In this document: positions 1,338-47,490 of the stretch, in pieces
How positions within the stretch are numbered: position 1 is the stretch's first letter
How the letters are laid out: each line of letters opens with the position of its first letter
Assembly: GCA_037443445.1 (NCBI GenBank)
Contig: JBBIOJ010000007.1
Span: forward strand, 5,383-69,382
DNA from: Desulfarculaceae bacterium
Lineage (GTDB): Bacteria > Desulfobacterota > Desulfocorpusculales > Desulfocorpusculum
Reading direction: 5' to 3'
DNA length: 64,000 nucleotides
Made by a program: the position numbers and the translations under genes
The notes under the pieces: model-generated
What the model saw: only the letters and a program-made list of their open reading frames with translations
Databases searched by the model: none
What the model was told of the DNA's origin: nothing

Positions 1338-1369
1338 GGACTCAGGCCCAGAGACCTGAGTCCTTTTTT
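1338..1369. terminator. Rho-independent terminator hairpin (GGACTCAGG...CCTGAGTCC followed by TTTTTT); likely bidirectional for the tRNA cluster and the convergent oxidoreductase gene
   Basis: Perfect 9-bp stem followed by a T-run. It lies between the tRNA-Lys 3' end and the stop codon of the minus-strand gene 1368..2828. Confidence 0.6.
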
Positions 1370-2828
1370 ACTCTGAAGCTGCTTCACAGGCTCTGCCTTT
1401 CAGCTGAAACAGGAATTTGAGGCCTTTTTTCACCGTATCGGAATACAGCTTCCGGGCGAAGATGTTCCCCACGGTTCTCTTGTTTATCTCCCCCAGGGTG
1501 GGATAGGGATGAACGGCAGAGGCCACAGTGGATAGCCTTACCCCTCCGTTTATGATGGCCACCCATTCATTGAGCAACTCCCCGGCGCTTGGCCCGAGGA
1601 TCTGAATGCCGAGTGGCCTGCCTCTGGTGCCCAGGATCATTTTTATTTTCCCTATCCTCTCCCCCTCCGCGAGGCTTCTGTCATTATCTTGGAAGGCTTC
1701 TACCCATGTTGTGTAATCCAGCCCGGCCTCTTGGGCCATCTTTTCGTTCATTCCCATACCGGCTAGCTCTGGGTGTGTGAAAGTGCACCACGGCATCCAC
1801 CTGTAGTTTGCTTTTCGAGGGAGGTGCAGAACGGCATTGCTGACCACTATGCTTCCCTCATACCCGGCCACGTGGGTGAACTGATACTCCCCGGTGACAT
1901 CCCCGGCAGCATAGATGTGTCTGTGTCCTGTTCTGAGCCGATCCTCCACTTCCAAACCCTTCTTGTCAAACTTCAAGTCGATTCCCTCCAACCCCAACCC
2001 ACCCAGGTTGGCTTCCCGTCCCATGGCAACAAAGATGGTCTCTGCCCTGAGGCTTTTCAGATTCCCATCCCCGGTTCTCAAGGTTACCTCTTTCTCACTC
2101 CCAAGGTCTCTGACGCTCACCACAGAGGCATTGAGGTGGAACACGACTCCTTCCTCGGCAAGGAGGTTCATGAGAATGTCCGCCATGTCCTTGTCCTCCC
2201 TGCTCAGGATCTGGTTGCTGCGCTGGATCACAAAAACTTGAGTGCCTAGACGCTGGAACGCCTGGGCCATCTCTATGGCGATGGGTCCGGCACCGAGCAG
2301 GATCATGGATTGGGGTAAACGGTCCAGGGAGAAGATCTCCTTGTTGGTGACATAAGGAGTCTGATCCAACCCTGGTATGGCCGGAATTGCCGGGGAGGAA
2401 CCCGTGGCAATCACCCAGTTCTTGGCAGAAAAAGAAGTTCCGTTGAGCCGGATGGTATGCTCATCCGTGAATGCTGGCAGGCCAAATTCCACCTGGACTC
2501 CGAGCCTGCAGAACCGCTCTGGGGAATCGTGTTTTTGTATGGTGGCAATGACTTCCCGGATCCTTCTGACCACCTCCTTGTAGTCCACAGGCGGCAGTTC
2601 CACCGATGGAAGCCCGAATTTACCTGCGTTTTTCATCAGATGGCGTACATGGGCCGTCTTGATGAGAGTCTTGCTGGGAACACAACCAAAGTGGAGGCAA
2701 TCCCCTCCCAGTTCATTCTCCTTCTCAACCAGGAGAGTCTTGGCTCCCAGCTGGGCTGCACCCGCCGCCACAGTCAGGCCCGCGGCTCCACCCCCGAGAA
2801 TGCCGATATCGAAATCATGATTCGCCAT
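1368..2828 (-). CDS. Class I pyridine nucleotide-disulfide oxidoreductase (dihydrolipoamide dehydrogenase / mercuric reductase-like core)
   Basis: N-terminal FAD-binding GxGxxG motif (GILGGGAAG). Redox-active disulfide motif GGDCLHFGCVPSK. A dimerisation domain is present. There is no C-terminal vicinal Cys-Cys pair and no NmerA domain, so it is not a MerA. Confidence 0.8.
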   Translation of the reverse strand: MANHDFDIGILGGGAAGLTVAAGAAQLGAKTLLVEKENELGGDCLHFGCVPSKTLIKTAHVRHLMKNAGKFGLPSVELPPVDYKEVVRRIREVIATIQKHDSPERFCRLGVQVEFGLPAFTDEHTIRLNGTSFSAKNWVIATGSSPAIPAIPGLDQTPYVTNKEIFSLDRLPQSMILLGAGPIAIEMAQAFQRLGTQVFVIQRSNQILSREDKDMADILMNLLAEEGVVFHLNASVVSVRDLGSEKEVTLRTGDGNLKSLRAETIFVAMGREANLGGLGLEGIDLKFDKKGLEVEDRLRTGHRHIYAAGDVTGEYQFTHVAGYEGSIVVSNAVLHLPRKANYRWMPWCTFTHPELAGMGMNEKMAQEAGLDYTTWVEAFQDNDRSLAEGERIGKIKMILGTRGRPLGIQILGPSAGELLNEWVAIINGGVRLSTVASAVHPYPTLGEINKRTVGNIFARKLYSDTVKKGLKFLFQLKGRACEAASE

Positions 2829-2851
2829 AACGTCCTCCTAGTCATAAATAT

Positions 2852-3583
2852 TCACACCTTTGAAATTTCAGATGCCTTCCTTATTCTCACCTTGTACAGG
2901 GTCATCAGCTTCTTCACCAGGAGGGGAAACAGGCCCAAGATAGCGAAGGAGACGATAAGGCTAGGGGAAAGGATCCCGGAGAGGGAATCTATCTTGGCGA
3001 GCTCTTTCCCCGCGTTGACATAAATGGCTGTCCCCGGCAGCATTCCCACCTGGGAGACCCAGTAGAAAGTGAGCAATGGAACCTTGGTAAGCCCCATTAC
3101 CAGATTTATCATCCAGAACGGGAACAGAGGGATGAGGCGCAGGGTGAAGAGGTAGAAGGGGCCTTCCCTGGCGATTCCCTCGTTGATGGTGGTGAGGCGG
3201 TCGCCGAATTTGCCCTGAACCCAGTCCCTCAGCAAGAACCTGGAGACGAAGCAAGCCAGGGTCGCCCCTATGGTGCTTGCGAAAGAGACCACCAGAACGC
3301 CTACCCAAAAACCGAAAAGGGCCCCCCCGGCCAGGGTGAGGATGGTCGCCCCTGGCAGGGAGAGGGAAGTGGAGAGGATATAGATCACCATGTAAACGGC
3401 GATCACAAGGAGGCGATTCTCCGCGTAGAGGCTTGCGAACTTGGCCTCTGAGGCCTTGAGGTAGGAGAGGGATAAATACTGTTCCAGATCAAAGATATTG
3501 AAAGCTGCGATTAAGCCCAGGACCGCCCCGAGAATCAGGATCTTGTGGATAACCCTCTTGCTCTTGTGCTTTTCATTTTTCAT
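2852..3583 (-). CDS. DedA/TVP38 (SNARE-associated) family membrane protein
   Basis: Multi-TM protein of 243 aa with the DedA-like core (LPGATILTLAGGALFG). It sits immediately downstream of the oxidoreductase, a recurrent pairing. Confidence 0.7.
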   Translation of the reverse strand: MKNEKHKSKRVIHKILILGAVLGLIAAFNIFDLEQYLSLSYLKASEAKFASLYAENRLLVIAVYMVIYILSTSLSLPGATILTLAGGALFGFWVGVLVVSFASTIGATLACFVSRFLLRDWVQGKFGDRLTTINEGIAREGPFYLFTLRLIPLFPFWMINLVMGLTKVPLLTFYWVSQVGMLPGTAIYVNAGKELAKIDSLSGILSPSLIVSFAILGLFPLLVKKLMTLYKVRIRKASEISKV

Positions 3584-4436
3584 GGGAAGCCTCGTTCAGT
3601 TTCCAGTCGTAGTGATACTCGATCCTGCCTTTGTACCCGCTCAACTTCCCGGCCAGCGGATCCGCCGCATACCTAAGCAAATGTTGGATGACCCCGGCCT
3701 GGGTTCCTCCGAAATCCGCCTGGTACCAGTCATAGATGGACGAAAGGATCAGCCCCCTTCCTTCGAATCTGGCCCCCCGGGGATGATTCACGTATTGTCG
3801 TGCCCCTTTCTCCAGGAGCCCATCAGTGTTCTCCTGTGTGAATGCCTCTGGTTGAAGGTTGGGGCAACTCATGCTGGCGCAGTTGACAGCATAGTGAACT
3901 CGGTTGTCCTTCCAAATGGGCCGGAGGATGCGATGCTCGATGTCGTTGAGCGAGGCCTCCTCGCCCTCGATTCTAAGGAGTTTGGCTCCCCAGGGTCCCT
4001 TGCTGAACAATCCCGGGGAAATGTTGATGTCCAGGATGCTCTGGACCGGATAATGATCCAGGATCACCTTCACCGTGAGGGCGTTGTAAAGGTTTATCCA
4101 ATAAGCTTTTTGTTCAAGCCGGCTGAGCCCGGAGACTCGGACAGCCTGGAGCGCGCTTAGGTATTCTTCCAGTGACTTCCTGTCAGCTTCCGTGACCGCT
4201 CCATACCTGATTTTGTTGACCCCGGAGGGATCATCGGTCACCAGGTAGTTCTTCAGGAACCGATCCCACAGGCTGTGGTCCACTCGAATGGTGCTCAGTG
4301 GGTCGTTGGCCTCCCACCTGGGCCAAAGCTCTGCTTTGGGGGCCGCTCCGGTCTCCTTTACCCCAGCCCAGAGCGCCACAAGGACCGCCCCGGAAATGAA
4401 AAAACGCTTGAAAAACATTCTGTGACTCCTTTCCAC
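3573..4436 (-). CDS. DUF547 domain protein, secreted (paralog 1)
   Basis: Has a signal peptide and the DUF547 hallmark stretch (KAYWINLYNALTV ... HYAVNCASMSCP). Confidence 0.6.
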   Translation of the reverse strand: MERSHRMFFKRFFISGAVLVALWAGVKETGAAPKAELWPRWEANDPLSTIRVDHSLWDRFLKNYLVTDDPSGVNKIRYGAVTEADRKSLEEYLSALQAVRVSGLSRLEQKAYWINLYNALTVKVILDHYPVQSILDINISPGLFSKGPWGAKLLRIEGEEASLNDIEHRILRPIWKDNRVHYAVNCASMSCPNLQPEAFTQENTDGLLEKGARQYVNHPRGARFEGRGLILSSIYDWYQADFGGTQAGVIQHLLRYAADPLAGKLSGYKGRIEYHYDWKLNEASHEK

Positions 4437-5627: not shown

Positions 5628-7703
5628 CTATACCTTGCAGAGCCCATGGATAGACTCGCACGTGTTCGAGTAAAGCTTCTCGATCCAGTCGCCCCTTTGA
5701 ATATAAGGCATGGAGGGAGATCCGCATTCAGGGCAGATCCGGCTTCTGGCCATGCGACGCAGAAAACGGTGGGTTGTGGCGATGAATGCCGCATGGCTCC
5801 AGGCAAGAGGAGACACTGAGAGGGGCTCACCCGTCAATGGGTGGAGCTGTTCGGCCAGCACCCCGGAGGGGAGTGCGTGGGAGGCCACCCACCGAAGGAT
5901 TTCGTGCGCTTGGGTGACCTCCTCGTTGCTCTCACCCCGCTCCAGCAAGTAATCCGCCAGCCAAAGTGTACAGATGATCCAAGGGTTGCCGGGAACGTTG
6001 CTGCTTTGCCGGTGATAGGGATCGTTCTCATAGCGGGCCATTCCTCCGACACTCTGCACCCATAGCCTCTCCCGAAGGGTGGACATGCTGGACACTATGC
6101 GGGGGTCATCGGCGGAGTACATGCCAAAGGCAAACAATCCCCAAAGGCTTGAGTCACAGGTGGCATCGGTCTGCAGCTTGCCTTCTGGATTGGGATAAAG
6201 CATTCGGCAAAACCGATTCATGTCTTCCATCCAGAGGTGGGATGAAGCGGCATCCCGAACCTCTGCTGCCACGACTCGATACCGGTCCGCTTCCTCTTCC
6301 TCCCCAAAGACCTTGCAGAAGAGGGAGGCAGCCGTAAGCCCACCGAAAACCGCCCCCACCGTGAAAGCGGAGATACCGTAGCGTTCCTCCCACAGGTCGT
6401 AGGACGGGGCCGGAAGGCCGGTTCGTGGGTCCCTGAAGCGGCACATGAACTCCGCGGCCTTCTTGACCAGGTGGGCATACAAAGGCTTGACGAATTCGAT
6501 ATCCCGAAACATAACGAAATGGTGCCAAAGGGCCCATATGACGAGAGCCGTGGAGTCCTCCTGTATGGGCAACCGGGGCCGGCCCTCGTAAGACCAGGGG
6601 TGCCAGGAGGAGGCCAGCGTCCCGTCGGGGTTGTACTTGTGCAAGAGGTAACCCTCCGGCTCCAATCGATCAGCTATGAACTGAAAGAAGTTCCTGGACA
6701 GGCCGGGATAACCAGCCAGGTCCAGGGAATAGGCTGCCAACGCCCCGTCCCGGGGCCAGATATAGGAATAGGTGTCCCTGTTGAACTGAATCACATCCGA
6801 GTCATTGCCGGCCAGGATGCCCCCCTGCCAGTCGATCTGGATCCTCAGGACGAGCAAGCTGCGTTTGTACAGCCCGGCAACCTCCTCTGAGAGCTCAGAG
6901 AGCGGCGGCGACTCCTTTTTTACCCACAGCCCCCAGTAATCGGCCGTCCGCTGGGTCAACTTCCTGGGGTGCCTGTGTTTGACCAACGCATCCAGCCTTC
7001 GGACCTGTTCCCAGCTTTCTCCTGCTGTGATCCAGAAGTAGCATTTTTCCTCGGCCCCGGCCTGCAGGTTCATCCGCAGGGCAATGACCGAATCCACCGA
7101 TCCCTGGGCAATGGGGTTGCCTGAGAGCCGTCCGTCTTCCGCATCTTTGAAGGTCCCCATCCTGCCGCCTGTTGCGGTCTGCCCCGTAGCGAATTGATCC
7201 AAGCCTTCTCCGCCCTCCACCCAGCCGTTGGCCAAGAAATACCTGGCCCCCTTGTAATGGACAACGCCGCCGCTGGTGGGGTCAAAGGCCGCAGTGTCCC
7301 CCACTCTATTGCCGGATATTCCGAGATCCAGATGGAAAAACAGACGAATCTCCCGCGACCTGTCACTGAGATTCTCCACCGAGATCTCCCTGACATAGAT
7401 GTCTTCGTGGAAATCCACTGCATCGCTGCAGCTGAGGCGAAGCATCAGATCGGGCGAGAACAGTGTCACCTCCGTGATCAGGGTGTCGGCTGCATAGCGA
7501 AGCTCTGGATGCCATCCAGGGCCTACCCAGGAAAATCTGCCCTCCACCCACACCCCGAGCCTGGAGACATTGCCTCCTCCATGGTTCTCCTGCCCCACGT
7601 GCGGGTAATAGATGTCCCGGATGCAATAGTCCTTGTCGAAACAGATCAGGAGTTTTCCATTGCCCACAGGGATATCTCTCGGCATGGCCGTCACCTCCAT
7701 CAT
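5628..7703 (-). CDS. Glycoside hydrolase family 15 (glucoamylase / glucodextranase / trehalase-like)
   Basis: 691 aa with an (alpha/alpha)6 barrel and the GH15 signatures (IWPRDGA, LWEERYG). Has a C-terminal Cys cluster. Confidence 0.75.
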   Translation of the reverse strand: MMEVTAMPRDIPVGNGKLLICFDKDYCIRDIYYPHVGQENHGGGNVSRLGVWVEGRFSWVGPGWHPELRYAADTLITEVTLFSPDLMLRLSCSDAVDFHEDIYVREISVENLSDRSREIRLFFHLDLGISGNRVGDTAAFDPTSGGVVHYKGARYFLANGWVEGGEGLDQFATGQTATGGRMGTFKDAEDGRLSGNPIAQGSVDSVIALRMNLQAGAEEKCYFWITAGESWEQVRRLDALVKHRHPRKLTQRTADYWGLWVKKESPPLSELSEEVAGLYKRSLLVLRIQIDWQGGILAGNDSDVIQFNRDTYSYIWPRDGALAAYSLDLAGYPGLSRNFFQFIADRLEPEGYLLHKYNPDGTLASSWHPWSYEGRPRLPIQEDSTALVIWALWHHFVMFRDIEFVKPLYAHLVKKAAEFMCRFRDPRTGLPAPSYDLWEERYGISAFTVGAVFGGLTAASLFCKVFGEEEEADRYRVVAAEVRDAASSHLWMEDMNRFCRMLYPNPEGKLQTDATCDSSLWGLFAFGMYSADDPRIVSSMSTLRERLWVQSVGGMARYENDPYHRQSSNVPGNPWIICTLWLADYLLERGESNEEVTQAHEILRWVASHALPSGVLAEQLHPLTGEPLSVSPLAWSHAAFIATTHRFLRRMARSRICPECGSPSMPYIQRGDWIEKLYSNTCESIHGLCKV

Positions 7704-8063: not shown

Positions 8064-8882
8064 TCAGGCGTTGAGGTTCCAGTCGTACGGTCGGTATCTC
8101 AATTTGAATTCGTCTCTGTGATCCGCGAGGACATCCTTCTTTTCACCCTCGTCCAGGAATCGCAGGAGTGTCTCCAGCACGCTCGTGTCCGTGCCGCCGA
8201 AGTCGGAACGGTACCAGCGAAATATCTTCGATAGGAGAACGACCCTATCTTCTGGGATGATCTCAACCTCAGGCCCGTTGATGAAGCTCGCAGCTGCAAG
8301 GTCAAGCTGGGAATCCACCCTGTCTGCCTCATAGAACCCCACGGGAGGGCACGAGCGTGCCCCACACACCAGGGCGAAATGGATCCTTGGGTCCAAGGGT
8401 GAAACCACAAACCGCCTCCTGGGATCCCTCCCGCGAAAGGGTTTCAGGAGCCCATACGGGGCTCTGCGATTGCTACGGAGAATCCCGTGTTCCATATCTT
8501 GCAAGGAAAATCGGTGTCCTCCTATCTCATAGGCCGCGCGGCAGAAGAAAAACGGGATCTCCCGTACAGACCGGCGCACCCCGAGCCTAACAACGCCGTG
8601 GATGACGGCCGCGTTGTATATGTTGATCCAGAAGGCCAGTCGCTGGCCTGGCTCGGAGAGGGAATCCAGATGGAAGGAACGAAGGCCATTGGCAAGGGCT
8701 TCGTATTTTCGAAACGTCTCCGAACGCAGCATCTCATGGTATTGGATCCTGCCGCTTTCAGGATCCAGGAATTCCGCCTTCAGATCAGCCAGGGTCAAAC
8801 TCAGAACCGTATCCACGGCCTGGCCTTCCGGCGGAGCCCCAGGCTCCCCGCGGTTGATCACTATTTTGGAACACGGGAACAC
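8064..8882 (-). CDS. DUF547 domain protein (paralog 2)
   Basis: Motifs LAFWINIYNAAVIHG and HFALVCGARSCPP. Second copy of the family in this 5-kb region. Confidence 0.6.
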   Translation of the reverse strand: MFPCSKIVINRGEPGAPPEGQAVDTVLSLTLADLKAEFLDPESGRIQYHEMLRSETFRKYEALANGLRSFHLDSLSEPGQRLAFWINIYNAAVIHGVVRLGVRRSVREIPFFFCRAAYEIGGHRFSLQDMEHGILRSNRRAPYGLLKPFRGRDPRRRFVVSPLDPRIHFALVCGARSCPPVGFYEADRVDSQLDLAAASFINGPEVEIIPEDRVVLLSKIFRWYRSDFGGTDTSVLETLLRFLDEGEKKDVLADHRDEFKLRYRPYDWNLNA

Positions 8883-9525: not shown

Positions 9526-9966
9526 TTGACCAGCCGGGGAAGGGGGTTGATACCCATGAAGAACCACCTTGGTAAGATAGGTCTGGCAGGGGCGATTTTT
9601 GCCGCGCTGTGCTGTATCGGAACCCCGGCGCTGCTCACGATCCTAACATCCATCGGGGCAGGATTCCTGATCAACGATTCGGTCTTGCTGCCTTTGCTGG
9701 TGTTTTTCCTGACGCTCAACATCATTGGATTGCGCCTAACTTATAGAATCCATAGAAACCTCTGGCCCATGATACTTGGGGGACTGGCCTCGGCTGCCAT
9801 TGTGGTATTCATTTACGGCTGGTTCTTCAGGCCCGGCCTTTACCTGGGCCTGGGGGCCCTGGTAGCCAATTCGGTTTGGAACGCGGTTATGAAGAAGGGC
9901 TGCGAAACCAAGAGACCGCATCAAGTCCCGGGGCTTTTCCAGAGTTGTGAACGGGGGTCGCGATGA
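9526..9966 (+). CDS. merT: MerT-like mercuric/heavy-metal ion transport membrane protein
   Basis: Vicinal Cys pair in TM1 (AALCCIGTPALL), matching the MerT CC motif. A second TM segment follows, then a cytoplasmic Cys pair (GCETKRP...SC). The track start is TTG at 9526; an internal ATG at 9556 (MKNHLGKIGL) is more likely the real start. Confidence 0.55.
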   Translation: MTSRGRGLIPMKNHLGKIGLAGAIFAALCCIGTPALLTILTSIGAGFLINDSVLLPLLVFFLTLNIIGLRLTYRIHRNLWPMILGGLASAAIVVFIYGWFFRPGLYLGLGALVANSVWNAVMKKGCETKRPHQVPGLFQSCERGSR

Positions 9967-10154
9967 AGGAAACCATCACCGTGGAAGGCAATAGGCATTA
10001 TGAATGTGGCGTGTGTGGCTTCGCGTACGAGGAGAAGGAGTGGGCCGAGAAATGCGAGGCGTGGTGCTCGGCTCACGGAAGCTGCAACATGGACATTACT
10101 GAGCATGCAGTGCAGAGGAAGGTTCAGCATTCCCCACAGGAGGAACGATCCTGA
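9963..10154 (+). CDS. Small cysteine-rich protein (5 Cys in 63 aa; CGVCG ... C-x3-C-x5-C), candidate metal-binding protein
   Basis: Its start overlaps the merT-like stop (ATGA), indicating translational coupling within the mer-like operon. No recognisable family. Confidence 0.4.
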   Translation: MKETITVEGNRHYECGVCGFAYEEKEWAEKCEAWCSAHGSCNMDITEHAVQRKVQHSPQEERS

Positions 10155-10300
10155 CCAAAGGAAAATCCTCGGGCCAAAGCCTCGGTCGGTGCGCTTCACC
10201 GTGTGGGTGAACCGGGTGGTGAGCCGTCCCAAAGGAAGCTGAAAGGAGGGCTTGACTCTGCACTGTGCTCCAGGGTTTAAACTGCAAACAGAGGTGAGAC

Positions 10301-10714
10301 ATGGAGGGTCTGAGCATAGGCCAGCTGGCCAGGAAGTCCGGGGTGAATGTGGAGACCATACGCTACTACGAGAGACGGGGACTACTTCCGGCGCCGCCCC
10401 GTGGACGCTCCGGTTACCGGCATTACTCTCCGAGAGACATCCAAAGGGTACGGTTCATCAAGCGGGCTCAGAGGCTCGGATTCACACTGAAGGAGGTATC
10501 AGAGCTCTTGCAGCTGAAGGTGGATCCCCAGACCACTTGTGCTGATGTCAGAAGACGGGCTGAGATCAAGATGGCGGAAATAGACCAAAGGATTCTGGAG
10601 CTTCACGCAATGAGGCAAGCCCTTTCGAAGCTGGCAACCTCATGCCCAGGATCCGGTCCGAGTGCCGAGTGCCCGATACTGGATGTCTTGGACTCAAACG
10701 AGGAAAGGAGGTGA
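10301..10714 (+). CDS. merR: MerR-family Hg(II)-responsive transcriptional regulator
   Basis: N-terminal MerR HTH (IGQLARKSGVNVETIRYYERRGLL). Cysteines at positions 80, 115 and 124 are spaced exactly as the Hg-binding Cys82/Cys117/Cys126 of Tn501 MerR. Confidence 0.8.
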   Translation: MEGLSIGQLARKSGVNVETIRYYERRGLLPAPPRGRSGYRHYSPRDIQRVRFIKRAQRLGFTLKEVSELLQLKVDPQTTCADVRRRAEIKMAEIDQRILELHAMRQALSKLATSCPGSGPSAECPILDVLDSNEERR

Positions 10715-10719
10715 GAAAG

Positions 10720-10998
10720 ATGAATGCCAAGAGGAGGATAGAGATCTTCAGTGCAGGATGCCCCGTATGCAAGGAGGCGGTCGAGATGGTCAATGGAGCC
10801 GCCTGTCCTTCCTGCGAGGTGAGCGTGCTGGATATGCACGACTCCCAGGTCGCCAAGCGCGCGAAGGATTTGGGCATCTGTTCCGTTCCCGCGGTCCTGG
10901 TTGACGGGAAGCTAGCCGAGTGCTGCGCGGGACGCGGCCCTGATGAAGGGGCCCTCAGGGCAGCCGGGTTGGGAAGACCGATCCAGGAACACTTTTAG
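10720..10998 (+). CDS. Thioredoxin/glutaredoxin-like small redox protein with CPVC and a vicinal CC pair
   Basis: ATG at 10720 preceded by GGAGGTG. The 92-aa product carries CPVCKEA, CPSCEV and ECCAG. The track ORF 10642..10998 is the same frame with a spurious N-terminal extension. Confidence 0.5.
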   Translation: MNAKRRIEIFSAGCPVCKEAVEMVNGAACPSCEVSVLDMHDSQVAKRAKDLGICSVPAVLVDGKLAECCAGRGPDEGALRAAGLGRPIQEHF

Positions 10999-12490: not shown

Positions 12491-13399
12491 TCATGGAGCT
12501 GTGAAGACCTCAGTGTCCGGGTGAAATGCCTGCCACGCAAACCAGTAGCTGTAGATGACCGGAATCTCCCCGCCACGATCATCGAAGATCCTTAGGAGCT
12601 CTCCCCCAGGGGAGATCTCGATCTGCACCTCCACTCCCCCGACTTCATCACGAAGCACTCCCGCCTTCTTTCTCAGGAGGGAGATCGGATAGGCCCTGGT
12701 GTGACCTTGGATCTCCAGGCCCAGGACCATCTCCTTGGGAGAAAGGTCGGTCCTCACGTCCCCGACGAGAAACCAGATCCCAAGACCCCTGTAATAGCCC
12801 TCGTAAGGGTCCACGGAGTAATCCCTTCGGTGGCCCGTATCCGTGGAGAGCACGAGCGTCTGGGGCTTCTTTTTCAGCCACGTCCTCCAGGTCGTTCTGA
12901 GCGAGGGAATCCTCCGCAAGGACTTGCCGGCGAGGGGGCCGGCAATGGCCTTCTCCATCATCTGGGACCAGAGGCTTTCGTTCTGGTGGTCGTAAAGAAG
13001 CACGTTGCTCTTGTAAAGCAATCCTGACACCCCGAATGTATGTGTCACGCCCTCCAAAGCCCGGGAGTAGACCACCCCCGATTGTGTGAGCGGTCAGAAG
13101 GTCACGACCACCGGAGCGCCGCCCACGGTGTCGTTGACGACCTCGTGCCAGTTGAGGATCTTGATGGGGTAAGCCTTTGCTTCCTCTCCCACCGCTACCC
13201 CTATGACCGTATCGTCGGGCTTGAGAAATAGTGCTTCCTGTGGACTTACGAACTTGGGTTCCAGAATCGCCGGGATCCCGTCCTTGGGAGGTCCTCCAGA
13301 GAGAATCTCCCCCTTCGGAACGATGGCGTTATCCAGCCGGAAGCCCGTGACCGCAACCCACAACCCAAAAGCGGTCAGGAATTGACCGATTCTCTTCAT
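12491..13399 (-). CDS. DUF3179 family secreted protein with an in-frame TGA at 13094-13096 (candidate selenoprotein; alternatively a nonsense pseudogene)
   Basis: Track ORFs 13094..13399 (signal peptide plus N-terminal half ...GGAPVVVTF) and 12491..13075 (C-terminal half, ...YWFAWQAFHP) are in the same frame and separated by a single TGA. The junction reads VVVTF-U-PLTQSG. The hairpin CGGGGGU-GGUCU-ACUCCCG begins 13 nt after the TGA. Confidence 0.45.
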
Positions 13400-13604
13400 G
13401 GCTTCTGCCCTGCGGATCCCTTCTCTTTAGTCCGACCAAGTCCGAAGATCTTACGCCAGTGGCAAAAGACATCATCACCTTGAGCGTTACACTCGATCCG
13501 CTGGAGGAAGGCTCCCGGCAATTCTCCCCTTGACTTACCCTTTTCTTTGTATATTGATGTATATCATCATTTAGCAAAGTAAAGAAGATAGGGGGAGGTA
13601 TCCC

Positions 13605-14822
13605 ATGGCCCTACTGGAGACGTTTCCCGAGCCCATGCGCTCGCACCTTGCCAAGCTGCCATGTCCCTCTTTCGAGACACATCCCTGGGTCCAGGGGCCG
13701 GCTCTTTCCAAGCGCCGTGTGGCCCTGATTTCCACAGCCGGCCTCCACAGGCGCAAGAACCGGCCCTTCGAGGGGATGACCGGAGAGTATCGTGTGATAC
13801 CGAAAGAGTGCGAAGCCAACGACCTGATCATGACGCATGTATCAACCAACTTCGACAGGACAGGGTTTCAACAGGACTGGAACGTGGTGTTTCCTCTGGA
13901 CCGACTCAGGGAACTGGCCGAGGAAGGTATCATCGGGAGCGTGGCCGATTATCATTACTCCTTCATGGGAGCTGCGGATCCTTGGGAAATGGAGCCGTGG
14001 GCCCGAAACCTGGCTGGAGTGCTCAAGGGTGGCCGGGTGGATGCTGCTCTGCTTGTCCCGGTCTGACCCTTCTGCACGCGCGCCGTGGGCGCGCTGGCCC
14101 ATTACCTTGAGGCAGAAGGGATTCCCACCACACAGATCAGCCTCATCAGAGAGCACACAGAGATCATCCGCCCTCCCAGGGCTCTCTGGGTTCCCTTCGA
14201 GTTGGGACGGCCTCTGGGCATTCCAGGCGACGCTGCTTTCCAAGGGCGGGTGCTGCGGGCGGCGCTTGAACTTCTGGAGTCGCAGGAAGGGCCCGTGCTG
14301 GAGGACTTCCCAGAAGATGCTCCCCAAGGGAAAGCCGGCCTTGAGGAAACCGCCCAGGCATGGGCGTGTCCGGTCAGTTTCTCAGCCGCGCCCGAAAAAG
14401 CAGGGGATGAAGGGGAACTCCTGCCCGCACTGCGGCGAGAGATCATGGAGCTGCGGCCCTGGTACGATCTCAGCCTGGAGCGCAGGAAGCGCACCTCGGT
14501 GGCATATTTCCCTCCCGAGGCTGCTTCCCAGTTCTTCGGTTCCGTCTTGCTGGGGGAAGCTCATCATATCCCTGAGAACTTGGCATCACCCGCAGTGGCC
14601 CTCAGGCTCGCAGCCCAGGATCTGAAGGCATTCTATTTCGAGTCCGTGACCGCTCGGCCGGGCTTCGCCACCCCGGGAGCCTCGGAGTTCAACAGGTGGT
14701 TCTGGCAGCAGACTGCTGCAGGCCGCCTCCTGAAGTCGGTGAGGAGGATCTGCGCAGACTCCCAGGATCAGGAGATGAGAGACGCCGCAGTGCGGTTCTT
14801 GATCCCGCTGGACCAGGCTTAG
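13605..14822 (+). CDS. Glycine/sarcosine/betaine/D-proline reductase component B family (GrdB/PrdB-like, PF07355) selenoprotein, with in-frame TGA at 14064-14066 (motif VPV-U-PFC)
   Basis: Track ORFs 13605..14066 and 14085..14822 are in one frame, separated by TGA. The sequence across the junction is continuous and family-like (LLVPV-U-PFCTRAVGALAHYLEAEGIPT). A 7-bp GC hairpin (GCGCGCC-GUG-GGCGCGC) begins exactly 11 nt after the UGA. RBS GGGGGAGG precedes the ATG. Assignment to PF07355 is from recalled motifs, not a search. Confidence 0.5.
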
Positions 14823-14865: not shown

Positions 14866-15594
14866 GTGGAAAGATTGTTGAACGTGAGAGAGACCGCTGA
14901 GTTCCTGAATGTCTCGGAGATGACGGTGCGCAGGTGGACCAATGCGGGCTTGTTGCGCTGCTACCGCATCGGGCCCAAGCGAGAAAGGCGTTTCAAGCTC
15001 CGGGAATTGGAGGAATACCTTGCCGGCGCGGCCGCGTGGCAGAAGGTGTGTACCGTGCCACTGGGTCTCGCAGACTCGGAAGTCCCTGACGGAGCGCATC
15101 TGAGCCATCTTTATCATGATGGCCAGGAGGCTCTTGGTGTGGGCGTCCCGTATGTAATGGAGGGTCTTCGAGGCGGGGAAACCGTGCTGGTGGTGGCACA
15201 TGAGGCGGGTACCAGGGCCCTCCTGGAAGCCCTGGAGGGACAAGGTTTGGACATCCAGGCCCTGAGGGACAGGGGTAAGTTGCACCTGAGTGGCGGAATG
15301 CCAACTCCAGAGGAACAAGCAGCATACATAGCATCGGTGGCTTCATCCTCCACCGGCCGCTTCAGGTTGCTGGGGGACATGAATTGGGCCAAGGACAGGA
15401 GATGGAGCGCTGAGAACCTAAGAGGCCTTGAAGACATGACCAATAGAGGCACGTCTTGTCCTGGGAGGCTCATCCTTTGTCAATATTCCCTTGCGATATG
15501 CTCAGGACAAGAGGCCATGATGGTGATGGAAACTCACAATTACGCCATTTACAAAGGAAGAGTCCAGGAGAGCCCGTACTTTGGCTGCACCTGA
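14866..15594 (+). CDS. Transcriptional regulator: N-terminal excisionase/MerR-like HTH plus a C-terminal MEDS-like (DcmR-type) sensory domain
   Basis: HTH sequence LNVRETAEFLNVSEMTVRRWTNAGLL. The C-terminal roughly 170 aa resemble a MEDS domain (assignment is weak). Confidence 0.45.
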   Translation: MERLLNVRETAEFLNVSEMTVRRWTNAGLLRCYRIGPKRERRFKLRELEEYLAGAAAWQKVCTVPLGLADSEVPDGAHLSHLYHDGQEALGVGVPYVMEGLRGGETVLVVAHEAGTRALLEALEGQGLDIQALRDRGKLHLSGGMPTPEEQAAYIASVASSSTGRFRLLGDMNWAKDRRWSAENLRGLEDMTNRGTSCPGRLILCQYSLAICSGQEAMMVMETHNYAIYKGRVQESPYFGCT

Positions 15595-45224: not shown

Positions 45225-45365
45225 AGGGGTTGAACCGAGCCTGCTCAGCAAGTGCCTAAGGCAACAACGCTGGAGGGGGCAGGTGGGCTTGGGGTAGGCC
45301 CAAGGCCATCCAGGTCACAAACCCGGGGAGCAGGACTCCCACTCTCTTGCAAAAGGAGGACGGCC

Positions 45366-46121
45366 ATGAAGCAGGTTCTAACTTTCTCCATGATAGCCGC
45401 TTTGGTGGGGATGCTTTTGGCATGGCCACAGGCAATGGCTCAGGGGCCCAAGGTCCAGGGGGGCAAGGCCGCCCAGGCCCAATCCAAGGTAGGGGTGATA
45501 GTGGTGGACGTGCAGGGGGATTTCACCCAGTGGAAAAAAGGCTCTCTGGCTGTGCCCGGCACAGATAAGGCCTTTGTGGAAAAGGTTCGCAAGGCCACAG
45601 CCGCACTGGGCAAGGCAGGCTTTACCCTTTATGCCACCCAGGACTGGCACCCCTCTGATCATGTCTCCTTTTTCACCAACCATCCGGGCAAAAAGGCTTT
45701 TGACCTCATCAAGGTGGGCACCAAGGATCAGGTGCTTTGGCCCCCTCACTGCGTGCAAGGCACAGAGGGAGCCAGGGTGCTGGTGGACAACGATCTCTTC
45801 CTGGCCATCGTGAAGAAGGGGCAGGACAAGAACTTTGACAGCTACTCTGGGTTTCAGGACGATGGCGGGGCCAAGACCGAGATGGAGCGAATCCTCAAGG
45901 CCCGAGGCATAGAAAGGCTCATCATCTATGGGATAGCCACTGACTACTGCGTGAAAGCCACAGCCTTGGATGCGCTCGCAGCCGGGTTCAAGGTGACAGT
46001 GGTGGAAGAGCTCTGCCGGGGGGTGGCTCCCGAGACCACGGCCAAGGCCTTGGAGGAGATGAAAGCCAAAGGCGTCACTGTGCTCAAGTCTTTGGACCTG
46101 GAAGCCTTGAAGAGGATGTGA
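45366..46121 (+). CDS. pncA: Nicotinamidase/pyrazinamidase (isochorismatase family, PncA-like), with a signal peptide
   Basis: Motifs VVDVQGDF, ATQDWHPSDHVSF, WPPHCVQGTEGA and GIATDYCV, covering the catalytic D/K/C triad and metal ligands of PncA. Confidence 0.7.
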   Translation: MKQVLTFSMIAALVGMLLAWPQAMAQGPKVQGGKAAQAQSKVGVIVVDVQGDFTQWKKGSLAVPGTDKAFVEKVRKATAALGKAGFTLYATQDWHPSDHVSFFTNHPGKKAFDLIKVGTKDQVLWPPHCVQGTEGARVLVDNDLFLAIVKKGQDKNFDSYSGFQDDGGAKTEMERILKARGIERLIIYGIATDYCVKATALDALAAGFKVTVVEELCRGVAPETTAKALEEMKAKGVTVLKSLDLEALKRM

Positions 46122-46633
46122 CCGTGGAATGGGAGGAGCAAGAATCCCCTGCTCCCATCGGGGTGCGCTTCAGGCTGAACGGTCGGGAGGTGGCCCTGGA
46201 GGTTAGCCCCGGGGAGAGCCTGCTTTACCTGCTCAGGGAGAGGCTTGGTCTGAGGGGTACCAAGGAGGGGTGTGGCATCGGGGAGTGCGGGGCCTGCACC
46301 GTGGTGGTGGATGGGAAGGCTGCCAATGCCTGTCTCATGATGGCTGCACAGCTGGATGGAAGGGAGGTCCTGACAGTGGAGGGTCTGGAAAGCCCTGTGG
46401 GCCTTCACCCCCTGCAGGAGGCCTTCCTGGAACACCATGCCGTGCAATGTGGCTTTTGCACCCCGGGGATGCTCATGAGCTCGTACGCCTTGCTTTCATG
46501 CAATCCCAAACCCACAAGGGATCAGATCGTGGAGGCCCTGGCAGGGAACCTATGCCGCTGTACAGGCTACGAGCAGGTCCTGGAGGCTGTGGAGGCTGCT
46601 GCCAGGAGACTGGCCAATGGAAGGGGAAGGTGA
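46118..46633 (+). CDS. Molybdenum hydroxylase small subunit (2x[2Fe-2S]; CoxS/XdhC/NdhS-like)
   Basis: Motifs CGIGECGACTV and CGFCTPGM...CRCTGY. Confidence 0.85.
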   Translation: MTVEWEEQESPAPIGVRFRLNGREVALEVSPGESLLYLLRERLGLRGTKEGCGIGECGACTVVVDGKAANACLMMAAQLDGREVLTVEGLESPVGLHPLQEAFLEHHAVQCGFCTPGMLMSSYALLSCNPKPTRDQIVEALAGNLCRCTGYEQVLEAVEAAARRLANGRGR

Positions 46634-47490
46634 GGGGGACTTTCGCATATCACCGACCGAGTGACCTGGACGGGGCTCTGGAGCTCATGGATGAGTTGGG
46701 GGGGCAGGCCCTTCCCCTGGCAGGTGGGACCGACCTCATGGTGGAAATGCGAGAGGGGAAATACAGGGGTTACCACCTGGTGGATATCAGTAGGCTCCCC
46801 GAACTCAAGCTCCTGGAGCTACAGGATGGGGAGATTCACCTGGGGGCCGGCCTCACCTTCACCGAGATCTCGGGCTCGGAGCTTCTCAGGCTGCACGCCC
46901 CTGCCCTCGTGCAGGCAGCTTCCCAGATAGGGAGCCTCCAGATACGCAATGTGGCCACATTGGGAGGGAACGTGGTGCATTGCTCCCCCTGCGCGGACAG
47001 CGTGCCTGGGTTGTTGGTGCAGGACGCCAGGGCAATCTTGAGAAGTCTGGGAGGTACACGGGAGGTGCCGCTTCAGGAAATCCTTGTGGGGCCTTACAAG
47101 AGCGGTATACAGGCCGGGGAACTCCTGACTTGTTTCTGCCTCAGAAGCGCCTCAGGCATGTGGGGGGCCTTCCACAAGCTGGCCAGGAGAAGCTCCCTGG
47201 CCATAGCCAGGTTGAGCTTGGCAGTTCTGACAAGGCAGGGAGAAGAGGGGTTGAGTGATGTGCGGATCGCCCTTGGCTCTGGGACTCCTGTGCCACGCCG
47301 CATGGTGGAGGCTGAGGAGTTCCTCCTGGGCAAGGCCCCAAGAGAAAAGGATCTTTGGGAGGCAGGCCGTGTGCTGGCCTCAAAGATGGTGGAGGTGACC
47401 GGCAAAAGGCCTTCCACTGTTTACAAGGAGAAGGCGGCTCAGGGCCTCCTGGTCCAGGCCATGCTGCCCTTGGTGAGACATGGGAACTGA
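46630..47490 (+). CDS. Molybdenum hydroxylase FAD-binding medium subunit (CoxM-like)
   Basis: Probable GTG start overlapping the small-subunit stop. FAD-binding domain of the CO dehydrogenase flavoprotein family (AGGTDLMVEM). Confidence 0.65.
   Translation: MRGTFAYHRPSDLDGALELMDELGGQALPLAGGTDLMVEMREGKYRGYHLVDISRLPELKLLELQDGEIHLGAGLTFTEISGSELLRLHAPALVQAASQIGSLQIRNVATLGGNVVHCSPCADSVPGLLVQDARAILRSLGGTREVPLQEILVGPYKSGIQAGELLTCFCLRSASGMWGAFHKLARRSSLAIARLSLAVLTRQGEEGLSDVRIALGSGTPVPRRMVEAEEFLLGKAPREKDLWEAGRVLASKMVEVTGKRPSTVYKEKAAQGLLVQAMLPLVRHGN

What the first reader, a model, noticed from the sequence alone, without database searches (positions are those of the whole stretch)
13605..14822. Orphan GrdB/PrdB-family selenoprotein outside any glycine/proline reductase operon
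A GrdB-like protein of about 405 aa carries UGA in the motif VPV-U-PFC. A perfect 7-bp GC hairpin begins exactly 11 nt downstream. No grdA/grdC/grdE/prdA, thioredoxin or thioredoxin-reductase genes are nearby. Instead it is followed by an HTH-MEDS regulator. An AT-rich direct repeat (TGTATATTGATGTATAT, about 13537-13553) sits in its otherwise GC-rich upstream region. Stand-alone GrdB-like proteins are poorly understood.
Basis: partly seen in the sequence, partly recalled or inferred. Interest (0 to 1): 0.65.

Follow-up and report, generated by a model that had tools for sequence, protein, structure and literature searches.

The report
Stand-alone PrdB-like selenoprotein with sensor-regulator
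This is a real selenocysteine-containing enzyme related to the selenium subunits of glycine and proline reductase but working without their partner subunits; it belongs to a very widespread, catalogued but uncharacterised family, and here sits in a small operon with its own sensor-regulator and a conserved operator.

Summary
ORF 13605-14822 (405 aa) has one in-frame TGA (14064-14066, motif VPV-U-PFC). A perfect 7-bp GC hairpin starts 11 nt downstream. The protein passes Pfam PF07355 but falls far below every NCBIfam PrdB/GrdB cut-off.

All 161 closest relatives recovered from genomes and metagenomes carry TGA at this codon. More distant full-length homologues carry Cys (CxxC). Synonymous sites inside the hairpin stem are almost frozen, while the loop and 76 other comparable codons vary freely.

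None of 162 loci, nor this 64-kb window, showed a grd/prd partner gene, though only the recurrent neighbour families were annotated. The protein has a PrdB-like core plus a family-specific helical C-terminal domain.

In the window's clade the gene is followed by a DcmR-type HTH-MEDS regulator. The AT-rich repeat, actually at 13548-13564, is a conserved TGTATA-N4-TGTATA motif. It tracks the regulator gene even where the selenoprotein is absent, so it is probably the regulator's autoregulatory operator.

Neighbours in relatives are disulfide reductases, antioxidant genes and the ArsS "arsenosugar" set. The most likely function is a single-subunit Sec/Cys reductase of unknown substrate.

Selenoproteome surveys have counted this family as "PrdB" since 2005. 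This locus is therefore a new member of a known, uncharacterised kind.

The parts
13530..13535 (+). -35-like hexamer TTGACT of the probable operon promoter
   Evidence: Read from the sequence. Relatives carry TTGAC(T/A) 17-18 nt upstream of a TATTGT/-10-like hexamer that overlaps the repeat. The consensus promoter scan of the window found no site, so this assignment is inferred.
13548..13564 (+). Direct repeat TGTATAT-N3-TGTATAT with 10-nt phasing; probable operator of the HTH-MEDS regulator
   Evidence: It is the only match in the 64-kb window. The same motif lies within 250 nt upstream in 18 of 22 loci with an adjacent MEDS gene and in 4 of 113 without one (odds ratio 123, p = 4e-15; background 0.028 per kb). 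In four loci sampled through the regulator that lack the selenoprotein gene, it sits 55-112 nt upstream of the MEDS gene itself. Binding has not been tested.
13591..13598 (+). Ribosome-binding site GGGGGAGG, 6 nt before the ATG
   Evidence: Read from the sequence.
13605..14822 (+). Gene for a 405-aa stand-alone PrdB/GrdB-superfamily selenoprotein: PrdB-like alpha/beta core (aa ~34-235), a linker carrying the conserved C255-P256, and a helical C-terminal domain (aa ~269-399)
   Evidence: Translation. PF07355 at 33.7 bits. TIGR04483 at 95.9 bits over aa 33-226, below the cut-off of 300. AlphaFold2 model with pLDDT 84.5 and pTM 0.85. At least 594 genome and at least 589 metagenome relatives.
14064..14066 (+). 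UGA codon 154, read as selenocysteine (U154-P-F-C157)
   Evidence: The codon is TGA in 161 of 161 close relatives and TGC in the Cys form L001. Full-length Cys homologues have PVCPxCTR. In the model the residue sits between strand 147-151 and helix 156-170.
14078..14094 (+). SECIS-type hairpin: 7-bp GC stem GCGCGCC/GGCGCGC with apical loop GUG
   Evidence: Fold. Six of the seven stem pairs are kept in 70-80 of 80 distinct sequences; pair 17-29 is kept in only 44 of 80, where the rest have a G.G mismatch. Entropy at four-fold third positions in stem codons is 0.18-0.65 bit. It is 1.64 bit in the loop codon and has a median of 1.77 (minimum 1.15) in 76 other conserved codons. The Cys-form L001 has no such hairpin.
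14866..15594 (+). Gene for a 242-aa DcmR-type transcription regulator (N-terminal HTH_17, C-terminal MEDS sensor domain), 43 nt after the selenoprotein stop codon
   Evidence: Pfam HTH_17 48.3 bits and MEDS 72.7 bits. A homologue lies immediately downstream on the same strand in 23 of 162 loci, all with a target at least 60% identical to the window protein. JGI names many homologues 'transcriptional repressor of dcmA and dcmR'. No terminator-like site lies between the two genes.

Best explanation
The locus is a two-gene operon.

The first gene encodes a genuine selenoprotein of the GrdB/PrdB superfamily. It belongs to a distinct, very widespread stand-alone subfamily. This subfamily has a PrdB-like alpha/beta core carrying the U154-x-x-C157 pair at the N-terminus of a helix. 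It also has a helical C-terminal domain of about 140 residues that neither PrdB nor GrdB has.

UGA-154 is recoded as selenocysteine with the help of the GC hairpin that starts 11 nt downstream.

The protein is not a subunit of glycine, sarcosine, betaine or proline reductase. By analogy with PrdB, it most likely works as a single-subunit reductase:
1. The selenolate of Sec154 attacks an electrophilic or oxidised centre of a small substrate.
2. Cys157 resolves the adduct into a selenenyl-sulfide.
3. A thiol/disulfide reductase system re-reduces that bond. MerA/Lpd-like flavoproteins, FMN reductases and thioredoxin-fold proteins are the commonest neighbours.

The second gene encodes a DcmR-type HTH-MEDS regulator. 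It most likely binds the phased TGTATA repeats that overlap the promoter, so the operon would be autoregulated and respond to a small ligand.

What is shown: family placement, Sec recoding signals, the absence of partner genes among the neighbours examined, conservation of the operon, and co-occurrence of motif and regulator.

What is inferred: the catalytic cycle, the electron donor, DNA binding and its sign (repression), and the substrate. The substrate is unknown. The neighbourhood in relatives points to methylated metalloid (ArsS 'arsenosugar' gene set) or oxidative-damage chemistry.
For: Family placement:
- PF07355 scores above its cut-off.
- One continuous match to the PrdB model TIGR04483 covers aa 33-226 against profile positions 26-220 of 238.

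Selenocysteine:
- TGA at the codon in 161 of 161 relatives, and Cys in full-length homologues.
- The hairpin is conserved and its synonymous sites are frozen.
- A second TGA-containing gene of a known selenoprotein family (DUF3179) lies next door.

Enzyme-like conservation: R63, H78, S80, D84, D91, N93, R100, H117, Y118, U154, C157, R192, R202, E279, D339, Y344, E346 and W365 are each at least 98% conserved in 156 full-length sequences.

Structure: the model places Sec between strand 147-151 and helix 156-170.

No partners: the recurrent neighbour families in 162 loci and the annotated ORFs of the window include no grd/prd genes.

Operon and operator:
- The MEDS gene is adjacent in 23 loci.
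- The motif and the regulator co-occur with an odds ratio of 123.
- The motif stays with the MEDS gene where the selenoprotein gene is absent.

Redox neighbours:
- PNDR in 18-19 loci, FMN reductase in 8, Prx, TIGR04169 AhpD-like, and MsrB-MsrA directly upstream in 3 loci.
- A 68%-identical orthologue of the PNDR lies in the window at 1368-2828.
Against: - No biochemical datum exists for any member of the subfamily.
- No solved structure of any GrdB/PrdB relative is available for comparison.
- The hairpin shows no compensatory covariation beyond shuffles, because it hardly varies.
- No Sec-insertion genes or tRNA-Sec lie in the window.
- The regulator differs between clades (HTH-MEDS 23 loci, TetR 10, Crp 9, MerR 5). 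The redox and ArsS neighbourhood is largely confined to the clade at least 60% identical to the window protein (19 of 26 loci against 5 of 57). Shared ancestry may therefore explain part of the neighbourhood signal.
- The consensus promoter scan found no sigma-70 site in the window.
- The motif statistics are not corrected for phylogeny.
Confidence: 0.6

Rival explanations
1. It is a bona fide selenoprotein B subunit of a D-proline or glycine/betaine/sarcosine reductase, with partner genes (prdA or grdE, grdA, grdC/D) encoded elsewhere in the genome.
For: There is homology to PrdB and GrdB models, and the UxxC motif is shared with both (PMC13188914). The window is only 64 kb of a larger genome.
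Against: - Scores are far below every equivalog or subfamily cut-off: 95.9 against 300, 48.7 against 65.45, 38.2 against 602.
- There is an extra C-terminal domain of about 180 residues. The region matching positions 1-222 of the GrdB profile is absent, and so is the second Cys of GrdB's UxxCxxC.
- No partner gene appears among the recurrent neighbours of 162 loci.
- The family occurs in Dehalococcoidia, SAR202 and marine Alpha-/Gammaproteobacteria.
- The Olavius delta-1 symbiont has five 'proline reductase' selenoproteins but no GrdA or GrdB (PMC1976440).
Confidence: 0.05
2. The TGA is a true stop. The region would then hold two separate genes (153 aa and 245 aa), as gene callers annotate it, or a pseudogene.
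For: Databases hold hundreds of 242-247-aa 'hypothetical proteins' that start at the GTG following the TGA. No Sec machinery is seen in the window.
Against: - Both halves are in the same frame in 161 of 161 loci across several phyla.
- Full-length Cys homologues align through the site.
- The structure model runs continuously through the site, with pLDDT 86-98 around it.
- The caller's GTG start is the apical loop of the conserved hairpin.
- Synonymous-site freezing is confined to the stem.
Confidence: 0.02
3. It is a general thiol/selenol-disulfide oxidoreductase or antioxidant protein, comparable to UxxC thioredoxin-like or Prx-like selenoproteins. It would not be an enzyme acting on a specific small-molecule substrate.
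For: It has the UxxC redox motif. Neighbours include Prx, AhpD-like, MsrB-MsrA, PNDR and FMN reductase genes. The selenoproteome literature classes UxxC proteins as redox proteins (PMC1088965).
Against: - The fold is not thioredoxin-like.
- About 20 invariant charged or aromatic residues are spread over both domains.
- The protein is homologous to substrate-specific reductase subunits.
- The adjacent regulators are ligand-sensing types: MEDS, TetR, Crp, MerR.
Confidence: 0.2
4. The AT-rich repeat is only promoter sequence (a -10 or UP-like AT tract) shared by descent. It would not be a binding site of the HTH-MEDS protein.
For: The repeat overlaps the -10-like hexamer downstream of TTGACT. The loci that carry it are related to each other.
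Against: - It has strict 10-nt phasing, with up to 4-5 repeats in L017 and L026.
- It is found upstream of MEDS genes in quite different gene contexts that lack the selenoprotein gene.
- It is absent upstream of selenoprotein genes that have TetR, Crp or MerR neighbours.
Confidence: 0.15

Closest known systems
PrdB, the selenoprotein subunit of D-proline reductase (NCBIfam TIGR04483)
   Same: The best-scoring curated model. One continuous alignment covers almost the whole of PrdB (aa 33-226 against profile positions 26-220 of 238). It shares the Sec in a UxxC motif (PMC13188914), so an intramolecular Sec/Cys resolving chemistry is plausible.
   Different: The score is 95.9 bits against a cut-off of 300. 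There is no prdA (pyruvoyl proprotein), prdC, prdD/E or prdF nearby in any locus examined. The protein carries about 180 extra C-terminal residues with a helical domain. The host lineages are not Stickland fermenters.
GrdB/GrdF/GrdH, the substrate-specific selenoprotein B of glycine, sarcosine and betaine reductases (Pfam PF07355; TIGR01917/01918)
   Same: Superfamily membership is met (33.7 bits against 22). From the alignment coordinates, Sec154 falls about where the Pfam profile ends (aa 151 against profile position 345 of 347). That is where I recall the GrdB Sec to lie. This rests on coordinates and memory, not on a residue-level alignment.
   Different: Only the C-terminal third of the GrdB profile (positions 223-345) is matched. 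The motif is UxxC without the second Cys of UxxCxxC. There are no grdA/C/D/E genes. All equivalog and subfamily cut-offs are missed.
'Proline reductase PrdB' UxxC selenoproteins of the Sargasso Sea, GOS and Olavius symbiont selenoproteomes (Zhang and Gladyshev)
   Same: Probably the same family. It is pfam07355-related, has the UxxC motif, and is abundant in marine metagenomes and in the Olavius delta-1 symbiont. One of my loci, L041, comes from that organism (PMC1088965, PMC2398784, PMC1976440).
   Different: Those surveys labelled the sequences as proline reductase. In the passages I searched they do not separate them from true PrdB, describe the C-terminal domain, or mention the regulator or operator.
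DcmR, the HTH-MEDS repressor of dichloromethane dehalogenase in Methylorubrum (Methylobacterium) DM4
   Same: The domain architecture is the same: an N-terminal HTH plus a MEDS sensor domain, acting as a stand-alone regulator (PMC11197473). JGI names many homologues after it.
   Different: There is no dcmA here. The ligand and the sign of regulation are unknown. NCBIfam places the MEDS part nearest to RsbA-like proteins, but below the cut-off.
FarB, a GrdB-like selenoprotein proposed to cleave the C-F bond of fluoroacetate in Cloacibacillus
   Same: It is a precedent for GrdB relatives acting on substrates other than amino acids, through Sec attack on a carbon that carries a leaving group (PMC10838667).
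   Different: FarB is encoded with a GrdE-like partner and feeds the Grd complex. The protein here has no such partner.

Membership tests
Pfam PF07355 (GRDB superfamily) | Score at or above the Pfam gathering threshold | tested here: met
   33.7 bits against a cut-off of 22, E = 3.3e-8, aa 34-151 against profile positions 223-345 of 347.
PrdB (D-proline reductase subunit B, TIGR04483) | Score at or above the NCBIfam equivalog cut-off | tested here: not met
   95.9 bits against a cut-off of 300.
PrdB (D-proline reductase subunit B, TIGR04483) | Encoded with prdA (pyruvoyl proprotein) and other prd genes | tested here: not met
   No such genes appear among the recurrent neighbour clusters of 162 loci or among the annotated ORFs of the 64-kb window. 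Absence from the whole genome cannot be tested here.
PrdB (D-proline reductase subunit B, TIGR04483) | Sec (or Cys) in a UxxC motif at the homologous position | tested here: met
   The motif is U154-P-F-C157, and C157 is invariant in 156 of 156 sequences. The position lies inside the single aligned stretch to TIGR04483. Residue-level alignment to a real PrdB was not possible because no PrdB sequence was available.
PrdB (D-proline reductase subunit B, TIGR04483) | Size of about 240 aa with no further domain | tested here: not met
   The protein is 405 aa. Residues 269-399 form a separate helical domain with no Pfam match.
GrdB/GrdF/GrdH (selenoprotein B of glycine/sarcosine/betaine reductase) | Score at or above the NCBIfam cut-offs (TIGR01918 subfamily; TIGR01917, NF040794, NF040795) | tested here: not met
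   48.7 against 65.45; 38.2 against 602.2; 48.6 against 800; 52.7 against 775.
GrdB/GrdF/GrdH (selenoprotein B of glycine/sarcosine/betaine reductase) | N-terminal ~220-residue region of the GrdB profile present | tested here: not met
   Only profile positions 223-345 are matched, and the protein starts 33 residues before the match.
GrdB/GrdF/GrdH (selenoprotein B of glycine/sarcosine/betaine reductase) | UxxCxxC motif (PMC13188914) | tested here: not met
   The sequence is U-P-F-C-T-R-A. The third position is Ala in at least 98% of 156 sequences.
GrdB/GrdF/GrdH (selenoprotein B of glycine/sarcosine/betaine reductase) | Clustered with grdA, grdE, grdC/D and trxA/B | tested here: not met
   None appear among the annotated ORFs of the window or the recurrent neighbours of 162 loci.
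Bacterial selenoprotein (Sec recoding of UGA) | In-frame UGA aligned with Cys in homologues | tested here: met
   TGA in 161 of 161 relatives. TGC in L001, and Cys in P0002, P0003, P0006, P0009, P0021 and P0116.
Bacterial selenoprotein (Sec recoding of UGA) | Stem-loop immediately downstream of UGA with a small apical loop containing G (PMC1088965) | tested here: met
   A 7-bp stem starts 11 nt after the UGA, with loop GUG. The stem is conserved and its synonymous sites are frozen. No compensatory covariation was detectable.
Bacterial selenoprotein (Sec recoding of UGA) | selA, selB, selD and tRNA-Sec in the genome | not testable with these tools
   None are in the window: the tRNAs are His, Arg, Lys and Leu, and the Pfam annotation shows none. 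The rest of the genome was not available. The adjacent DUF3179 gene also has an in-frame TGA at the known Sec site.
DcmR-type HTH-MEDS regulator | MEDS domain (PF14417) and an N-terminal HTH, both above the Pfam cut-offs | tested here: met
   MEDS scores 72.7 against 29.8, and HTH_17 scores 48.3 against 27.
DcmR-type HTH-MEDS regulator | Binds an operator at its own promoter and represses until a ligand is present | not testable with these tools
   Only indirect evidence is available: the TGTATA-N4-TGTATA motif co-occurs with the regulator gene.

The most novel reading that the evidence does not exclude
The family could be a new class of single-subunit, selenocysteine-dependent reductases for small organo-element compounds. 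It would belong to a MEDS-controlled regulon shared with the ArsS radical-SAM 'arsenosugar' gene set.

The regulon set would comprise the TIGR04282/04283 glycosyltransferases, the TIGR04169 AhpD-like protein, DUF3047, DUF547, VTT and a MerA-like flavoprotein.

One concrete version is that it reduces pentavalent methylated arsenicals, or selenium analogues, to the trivalent form that ArsS uses. To my recollection, no enzyme has been assigned to that step.

A second version is that it reductively removes a halide or methyl group from C1/C2 compounds. Type II haloacid dehalogenase genes lie next to it in 7-8 loci, and the regulator is DcmR-like.
Probability: 0.15. Interest if true: 0.8.

Novelty: new member of a known kind. 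Interest (0 to 1): 0.45.

Why it matters
Selenoproteome surveys since 2005 have counted 'PrdB' UxxC selenoproteins among the most abundant selenoproteins of the ocean and of sulfate-reducer-rich sediments. If, as seems likely, these are the family found here, many of their hosts cannot run a Stickland proline reductase, and what the proteins do is an open question.

This locus gives three concrete experimental handles:
1. The enzyme stands alone. It could be tested without a partner subunit, using a dithiol or the neighbouring flavoprotein as the electron donor.
2. A dedicated sensor-regulator with an identifiable operator could be used to screen for the inducing ligand.
3. The recurrent neighbourhood (ArsS arsenosugar set, MsrAB, Prx, AhpD-like, haloacid dehalogenase) narrows the list of candidate substrates.

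There is also a practical point. Gene callers split these genes at the UGA and restart at the GTG in the SECIS loop. Public databases therefore hold hundreds of 245-aa 'hypothetical proteins' that are really the C-terminal 60% of this selenoprotein.

Tried and rejected

2. Exhaustive representative search.

3. Covariation test of the SECIS hairpin. There was no signal above shuffles because the stem is nearly invariant. I replaced it with a synonymous-site entropy test.

4. A longer lower stem (alignment columns 8-12 with 34-38), and the 9-bp long-range pairing CCCUUCUGC/GCAGAAGGG seen in the window fold. The lower stem is only partly conserved. The long-range pairing was not tested in relatives. 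Neither is claimed.

5. Rfam. No family matched the region.

6. Consensus promoter scan. It found no sigma-70 site upstream. The -35 and -10 assignment rests on comparison with relatives only.

7. Linkage to the divergent DUF3179 selenoprotein gene. DUF3179 is a neighbour in only 3 of the first 81 loci, so no functional link is claimed.

8. Residue-level alignment to an authentic PrdB or GrdB sequence. None could be obtained with the tools, so the equivalence of the Sec position rests on hmmscan coordinates.

9. Identifying the source organism through the 100%-identical regulator P0121. It has no name or accession on record.

10. Paralogues in the window. None were found.
Full report
**1. The observation**

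ORF 13605-14822 (+) translates to 405 residues with one in-frame TGA at 14064-14066, which is codon 154. The context is LLVPV-U-PFCTR. A GGGGGAGG ribosome-binding site lies 6 nt before the ATG.

Eleven nt after the TGA there is a perfect hairpin: GCGCGCC (14078-14084), GUG (14085-14087), GGCGCGC (14088-14094). In a 60-nt fold it contributes to -29.4 kcal/mol, with z = -2.9, and 2 of 200 shuffles fold as well.

The downstream gene, 14866-15594, starts 43 nt after the stop codon. It is an HTH_17 + MEDS protein (48.3 and 72.7 bits).

It is the only match to TGTATA-N4-TGTATA at up to 2 mismatches in the 64 kb.

**2. Family placement**

Pfam places the protein in PF07355 (GRDB) above the gathering score, at 33.7 bits against 22. 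Only aa 34-151 are matched, against profile positions 223-345 of 347.

NCBIfam's best model is PrdB (TIGR04483). It gives one continuous stretch, aa 33-226 against positions 26-220 of 238. The score is 95.9 bits against a cut-off of 300.

All GrdB/F/H models are also far below their cut-offs. The protein is therefore a superfamily relative, closest to PrdB, and not an equivalog of any characterised subunit.

The C-terminal residues, about 180 in all, have no Pfam or NCBIfam match.

**3. Is the UGA selenocysteine?**

A protein search returned 2495 relatives. Most of the best 120 are 242-247-aa 'hypothetical proteins' covering the 60% of the query that follows the UGA. The few full-length ones (369-418 aa) carry PVCPxCTR, with Cys at the Sec position.

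I kept the best 80 of each. The genome loci come from:
- Thermodesulfobacteriota (the majority);
- Dehalococcoidia and SAR202;
- Alpha- and Gammaproteobacteria;
- one Clostridiales MAG.

In all 161 of these loci, window included, the codon is TGA. In the Falsiroseomonas Cys form it is TGC.

The hairpin is conserved. Six of the seven stem pairs are kept in 70-80 of 80 distinct sequences. Pair 17-29 is a G.G mismatch in 36.

There is no compensatory covariation above shuffles, because the stem hardly varies. I therefore measured entropy at four-fold-degenerate third positions of conserved residues:

| Codons | Entropy (bit) |
|---|---|
| Stem codons T158, R159, A160, G162 | 0.65, 0.18, 0.41, 0.24 |
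| Loop codon V161 | 1.64 |
| 76 other conserved codons in the gene | median 1.77, minimum 1.15 |

. That is selection on the RNA, confined to the stem. The Cys form lacks the hairpin.

The GTG that gene callers use as the start of the 245-aa fragment is the apical loop of this hairpin.

A second gene with an in-frame TGA at a known Sec site lies head-to-head at 12491-13399 (PMC13188914). It is DUF3179, with the motif VVVTF-U-PLT. This also argues that the organism decodes Sec.

No Sec machinery or tRNA-Sec is in the window.

**4. The protein**

An AlphaFold2 model was built from a 12-sequence alignment, with pLDDT 84.5 and pTM 0.85. It shows three parts:
- an alpha/beta core, about aa 34-235;
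- a disordered linker, aa 243-266;
- an all-helical domain, aa 269-399.

Sec154 lies between strand 147-151 and helix 156-170. This is the strand-loop-helix position typical of activated nucleophiles.

In 156 full-length sequences the following residues are at least 98% conserved: R63, H78, S80, D84, D91, N93, R100, H117, Y118, U154, P155, C157, T158, R192, W195, R202, E279, W286, D339, Y344, E346 and W365. C255 is 97% conserved. This pattern fits an enzyme with a defined pocket spanning both domains.

No solved structure resembles the protein, by sequence or by Foldseek.

**5. No partner subunits**

I annotated the likely genes across the window by Pfam and NCBIfam. I also clustered the neighbours within 5 kb in 162 loci.

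None of the annotated ORFs or recurrent clusters is a grdA/C/D/E or prdA/C/D/E/F gene. Short ORFs and most single-locus neighbour clusters were not annotated.

The window does contain:
- a small Thioredoxin_3 protein (10642-10998);
- MerC/MerF-like and MerR genes (9526-10714);
- a MerA/Lpd-like flavoprotein-VTT-DUF547 operon (1368-4436, minus strand).

**6. Operon and operator**

An HTH-MEDS gene follows the selenoprotein gene on the same strand in 23 of 162 loci. All 23 have a target at least 60% identical to the window protein.

Upstream of these operons lies TTGAC(T/A), then 17-18 nt, then a TATTGT-like hexamer. This overlaps an array of TGTATA repeats with 10-nt phasing, with up to four or five copies in L017 and L026.

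Among 135 loci with enough flank, the motif and the adjacent MEDS gene co-occur as 18/4/4/109. The odds ratio is 123 and p = 4e-15, with a background of 0.028 per kb. The test is not corrected for phylogeny.

I then sampled from the regulator side. JGI names many homologues 'transcriptional repressor of dcmA and dcmR'. Seven contexts gave the following:
- Two have the selenoprotein gene directly upstream, with the motif in front of it (L164, L167).
- Four lack the selenoprotein gene and have the motif 55-112 nt upstream of the MEDS gene itself (L162, L163, L165, L168).
- One has no motif (L166).

The motif therefore travels with the regulator, not with the enzyme. This is the pattern expected of an autoregulatory operator. 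DcmR is the archetype of this architecture and is a repressor (PMC11197473). Binding and its sign are inferred.

**7. Neighbourhood**

Other clades have a TetR (10 loci), Crp (9) or MerR (5) regulator next to the gene.

Recurrent non-regulatory neighbours are:
- a MerA/Lpd-like pyridine-nucleotide disulfide reductase in 18-19 loci, with a 68%-identical orthologue in the window at 1368-2828;
- DUF547 (13-14 loci), VTT (15) and DUF3047 (6-7);
- FMN reductase (8);
- type II haloacid dehalogenase (7-8), which passes the TIGR01428 cut-off at 158.6 against 125.4;
- MsrB-MsrA directly upstream (3);
- truncated, probably Sec-containing Prx;
- genes that NCBIfam names as the arsenosugar set, all above their cut-offs: fused TIGR04282 + TIGR04283 glycosyltransferases, the ArsS radical-SAM (seleno)protein TIGR04167, and the TIGR04169 AhpD-like protein.

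ArsS adenosylates DMAs(III) (PMC13598754).

The signal is clade-specific. Among loci of at least 9 kb whose target is at least 60% identical, 19 of 26 carry at least one gene of the broad set. Among more distant targets the figure is 5 of 57.

The window has the flavoprotein-VTT-DUF547 part 9-12 kb away. It has no ArsS, glycosyltransferase, AhpD-like or DUF3047 gene.

**8. Interpretation**

Shown:
- a genuine Sec-containing member of the GrdB/PrdB superfamily;
- a distinct stand-alone subfamily with its own C-terminal domain;
- a conserved two-gene operon with a DcmR-type regulator;
- a motif that tracks that regulator.

Inferred by analogy with PrdB:
1. Sec154 attacks the substrate.
2. Cys157 resolves the adduct to a Se-S bond.
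3. A disulfide-reductase system recycles it.

The substrate is unknown. The neighbours suggest methylated metalloid chemistry or oxidative-damage repair, with organohalides as an outside possibility. There is precedent for non-amino-acid substrates in GrdB-like FarB (PMC10838667).

**9. Comparison with what is known, and novelty**

Selenoproteome surveys list 'Proline reductase PrdB, pfam07355, UxxC' among the most abundant marine selenoproteins. They report five copies in the Olavius delta-1 symbiont, which has no GrdA or GrdB (PMC1088965, PMC2398784, PMC1976440). One of my loci, L041, comes from that symbiont.

The family is therefore probably already catalogued under a misleading name. Searches of the paper library with subfamily-specific terms found nothing that separates it from PrdB, and I saw no account of its architecture, regulator, operator or neighbourhood.

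This locus is a new member of a known but uncharacterised kind. Interest is moderate. The finding itself is not surprising to a selenoprotein specialist, but the regulator, the operator and the neighbourhood make a long-open functional question experimentally approachable.

Noticed in passing
window 12491-13399 (-), TGA at 13096-13094: The divergently transcribed DUF3179 gene is split by an in-frame TGA (VVVTF-U-PLT, a UxxT motif), with a hairpin about 12 nt downstream. It is a second probable selenoprotein gene, 205 nt from the start of the first. DUF3179 is a catalogued selenoprotein family (PMC13188914). It neighbours the GrdB-like gene in only 3 of the first 81 loci.
   Followed up: partly
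window 14085-14087: The GTG in the apical loop of the SECIS hairpin is the start codon that gene callers choose for the post-UGA fragment. This has produced hundreds of 242-247-aa 'hypothetical proteins' in public databases, including the entry from this organism's own NCBI contig (P0240).
   Followed up: yes
window 1368-4436 (-): An operon encodes a MerA/Lpd-like pyridine-nucleotide disulfide reductase (486 aa), a VTT/DedA-family membrane protein and DUF547. Orthologues of these three lie directly beside the GrdB-like gene in many relatives (68% identity to the L089 flavoprotein).
   Followed up: partly
window 9526-10998 (+): A MerC/MerF-like membrane protein, a MerR-family regulator and a small Thioredoxin_3-fold protein form a metal/thiol-type cluster 2.6-4 kb upstream. 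A second DUF547 gene lies at 8064-8882 (-), next to a GH15-like gene at 5628-7703 (-).
   Followed up: partly
L162 3389-6103; L168 3906-6568: In these loci the HTH-MEDS gene has no GrdB-like gene but keeps the TGTATA motif in front of it. In L162 it is followed by a split Prx (48 + 110 aa, probably Sec-containing), a TIGR04169 AhpD-like gene and the ArsS radical-SAM gene. In L168 it is followed by ArsS and a VTT gene. The regulator seems to control a wider 'arsenosugar/antioxidant' regulon.
   Followed up: partly
L015, L016, L028, L030, L075 and metagenome loci (e.g. L075 7263-7949): Type II haloacid dehalogenase genes (TIGR01428, above the cut-off) lie next to the GrdB-like gene in 7-8 loci. 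They occur both upstream and downstream of it, and in two sequence clades.
   Followed up: partly
L152 5881-6987 and two other loci: A fused MsrB-MsrA methionine sulfoxide reductase gene ends 12-94 nt before the GrdB-like gene, on the same strand.
   Followed up: no
L163 1-3076: A more distant (39% identical) HTH-MEDS homologue, also preceded by the TGTATA motif, follows URO-D/MtrH-type methyltransferase and DUF1638 genes. DUF1638 also appears next to the GrdB-like gene in 3 loci.
   Followed up: no
window 45252-49762 (+): Isochorismatase-family, FAD-binding and molybdopterin-binding (xanthine dehydrogenase family) genes, followed by an amidohydrolase gene. A review mentions isochorismatase-like proteins in connection with an unknown SelD-dependent selenium trait (PMC9312934).
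   Followed up: no
L156 7001-8220: The closest relative by best-segment identity (77%, from a metagenome) appears frameshifted, with two overlapping ORFs. This is probably an assembly error. It is followed by DUF547, the flavoprotein and a GH15-like gene.
   Followed up: no
window 58772-59836 (+): A transposase gene with a DDE_3 domain and HTH domains.
   Followed up: no
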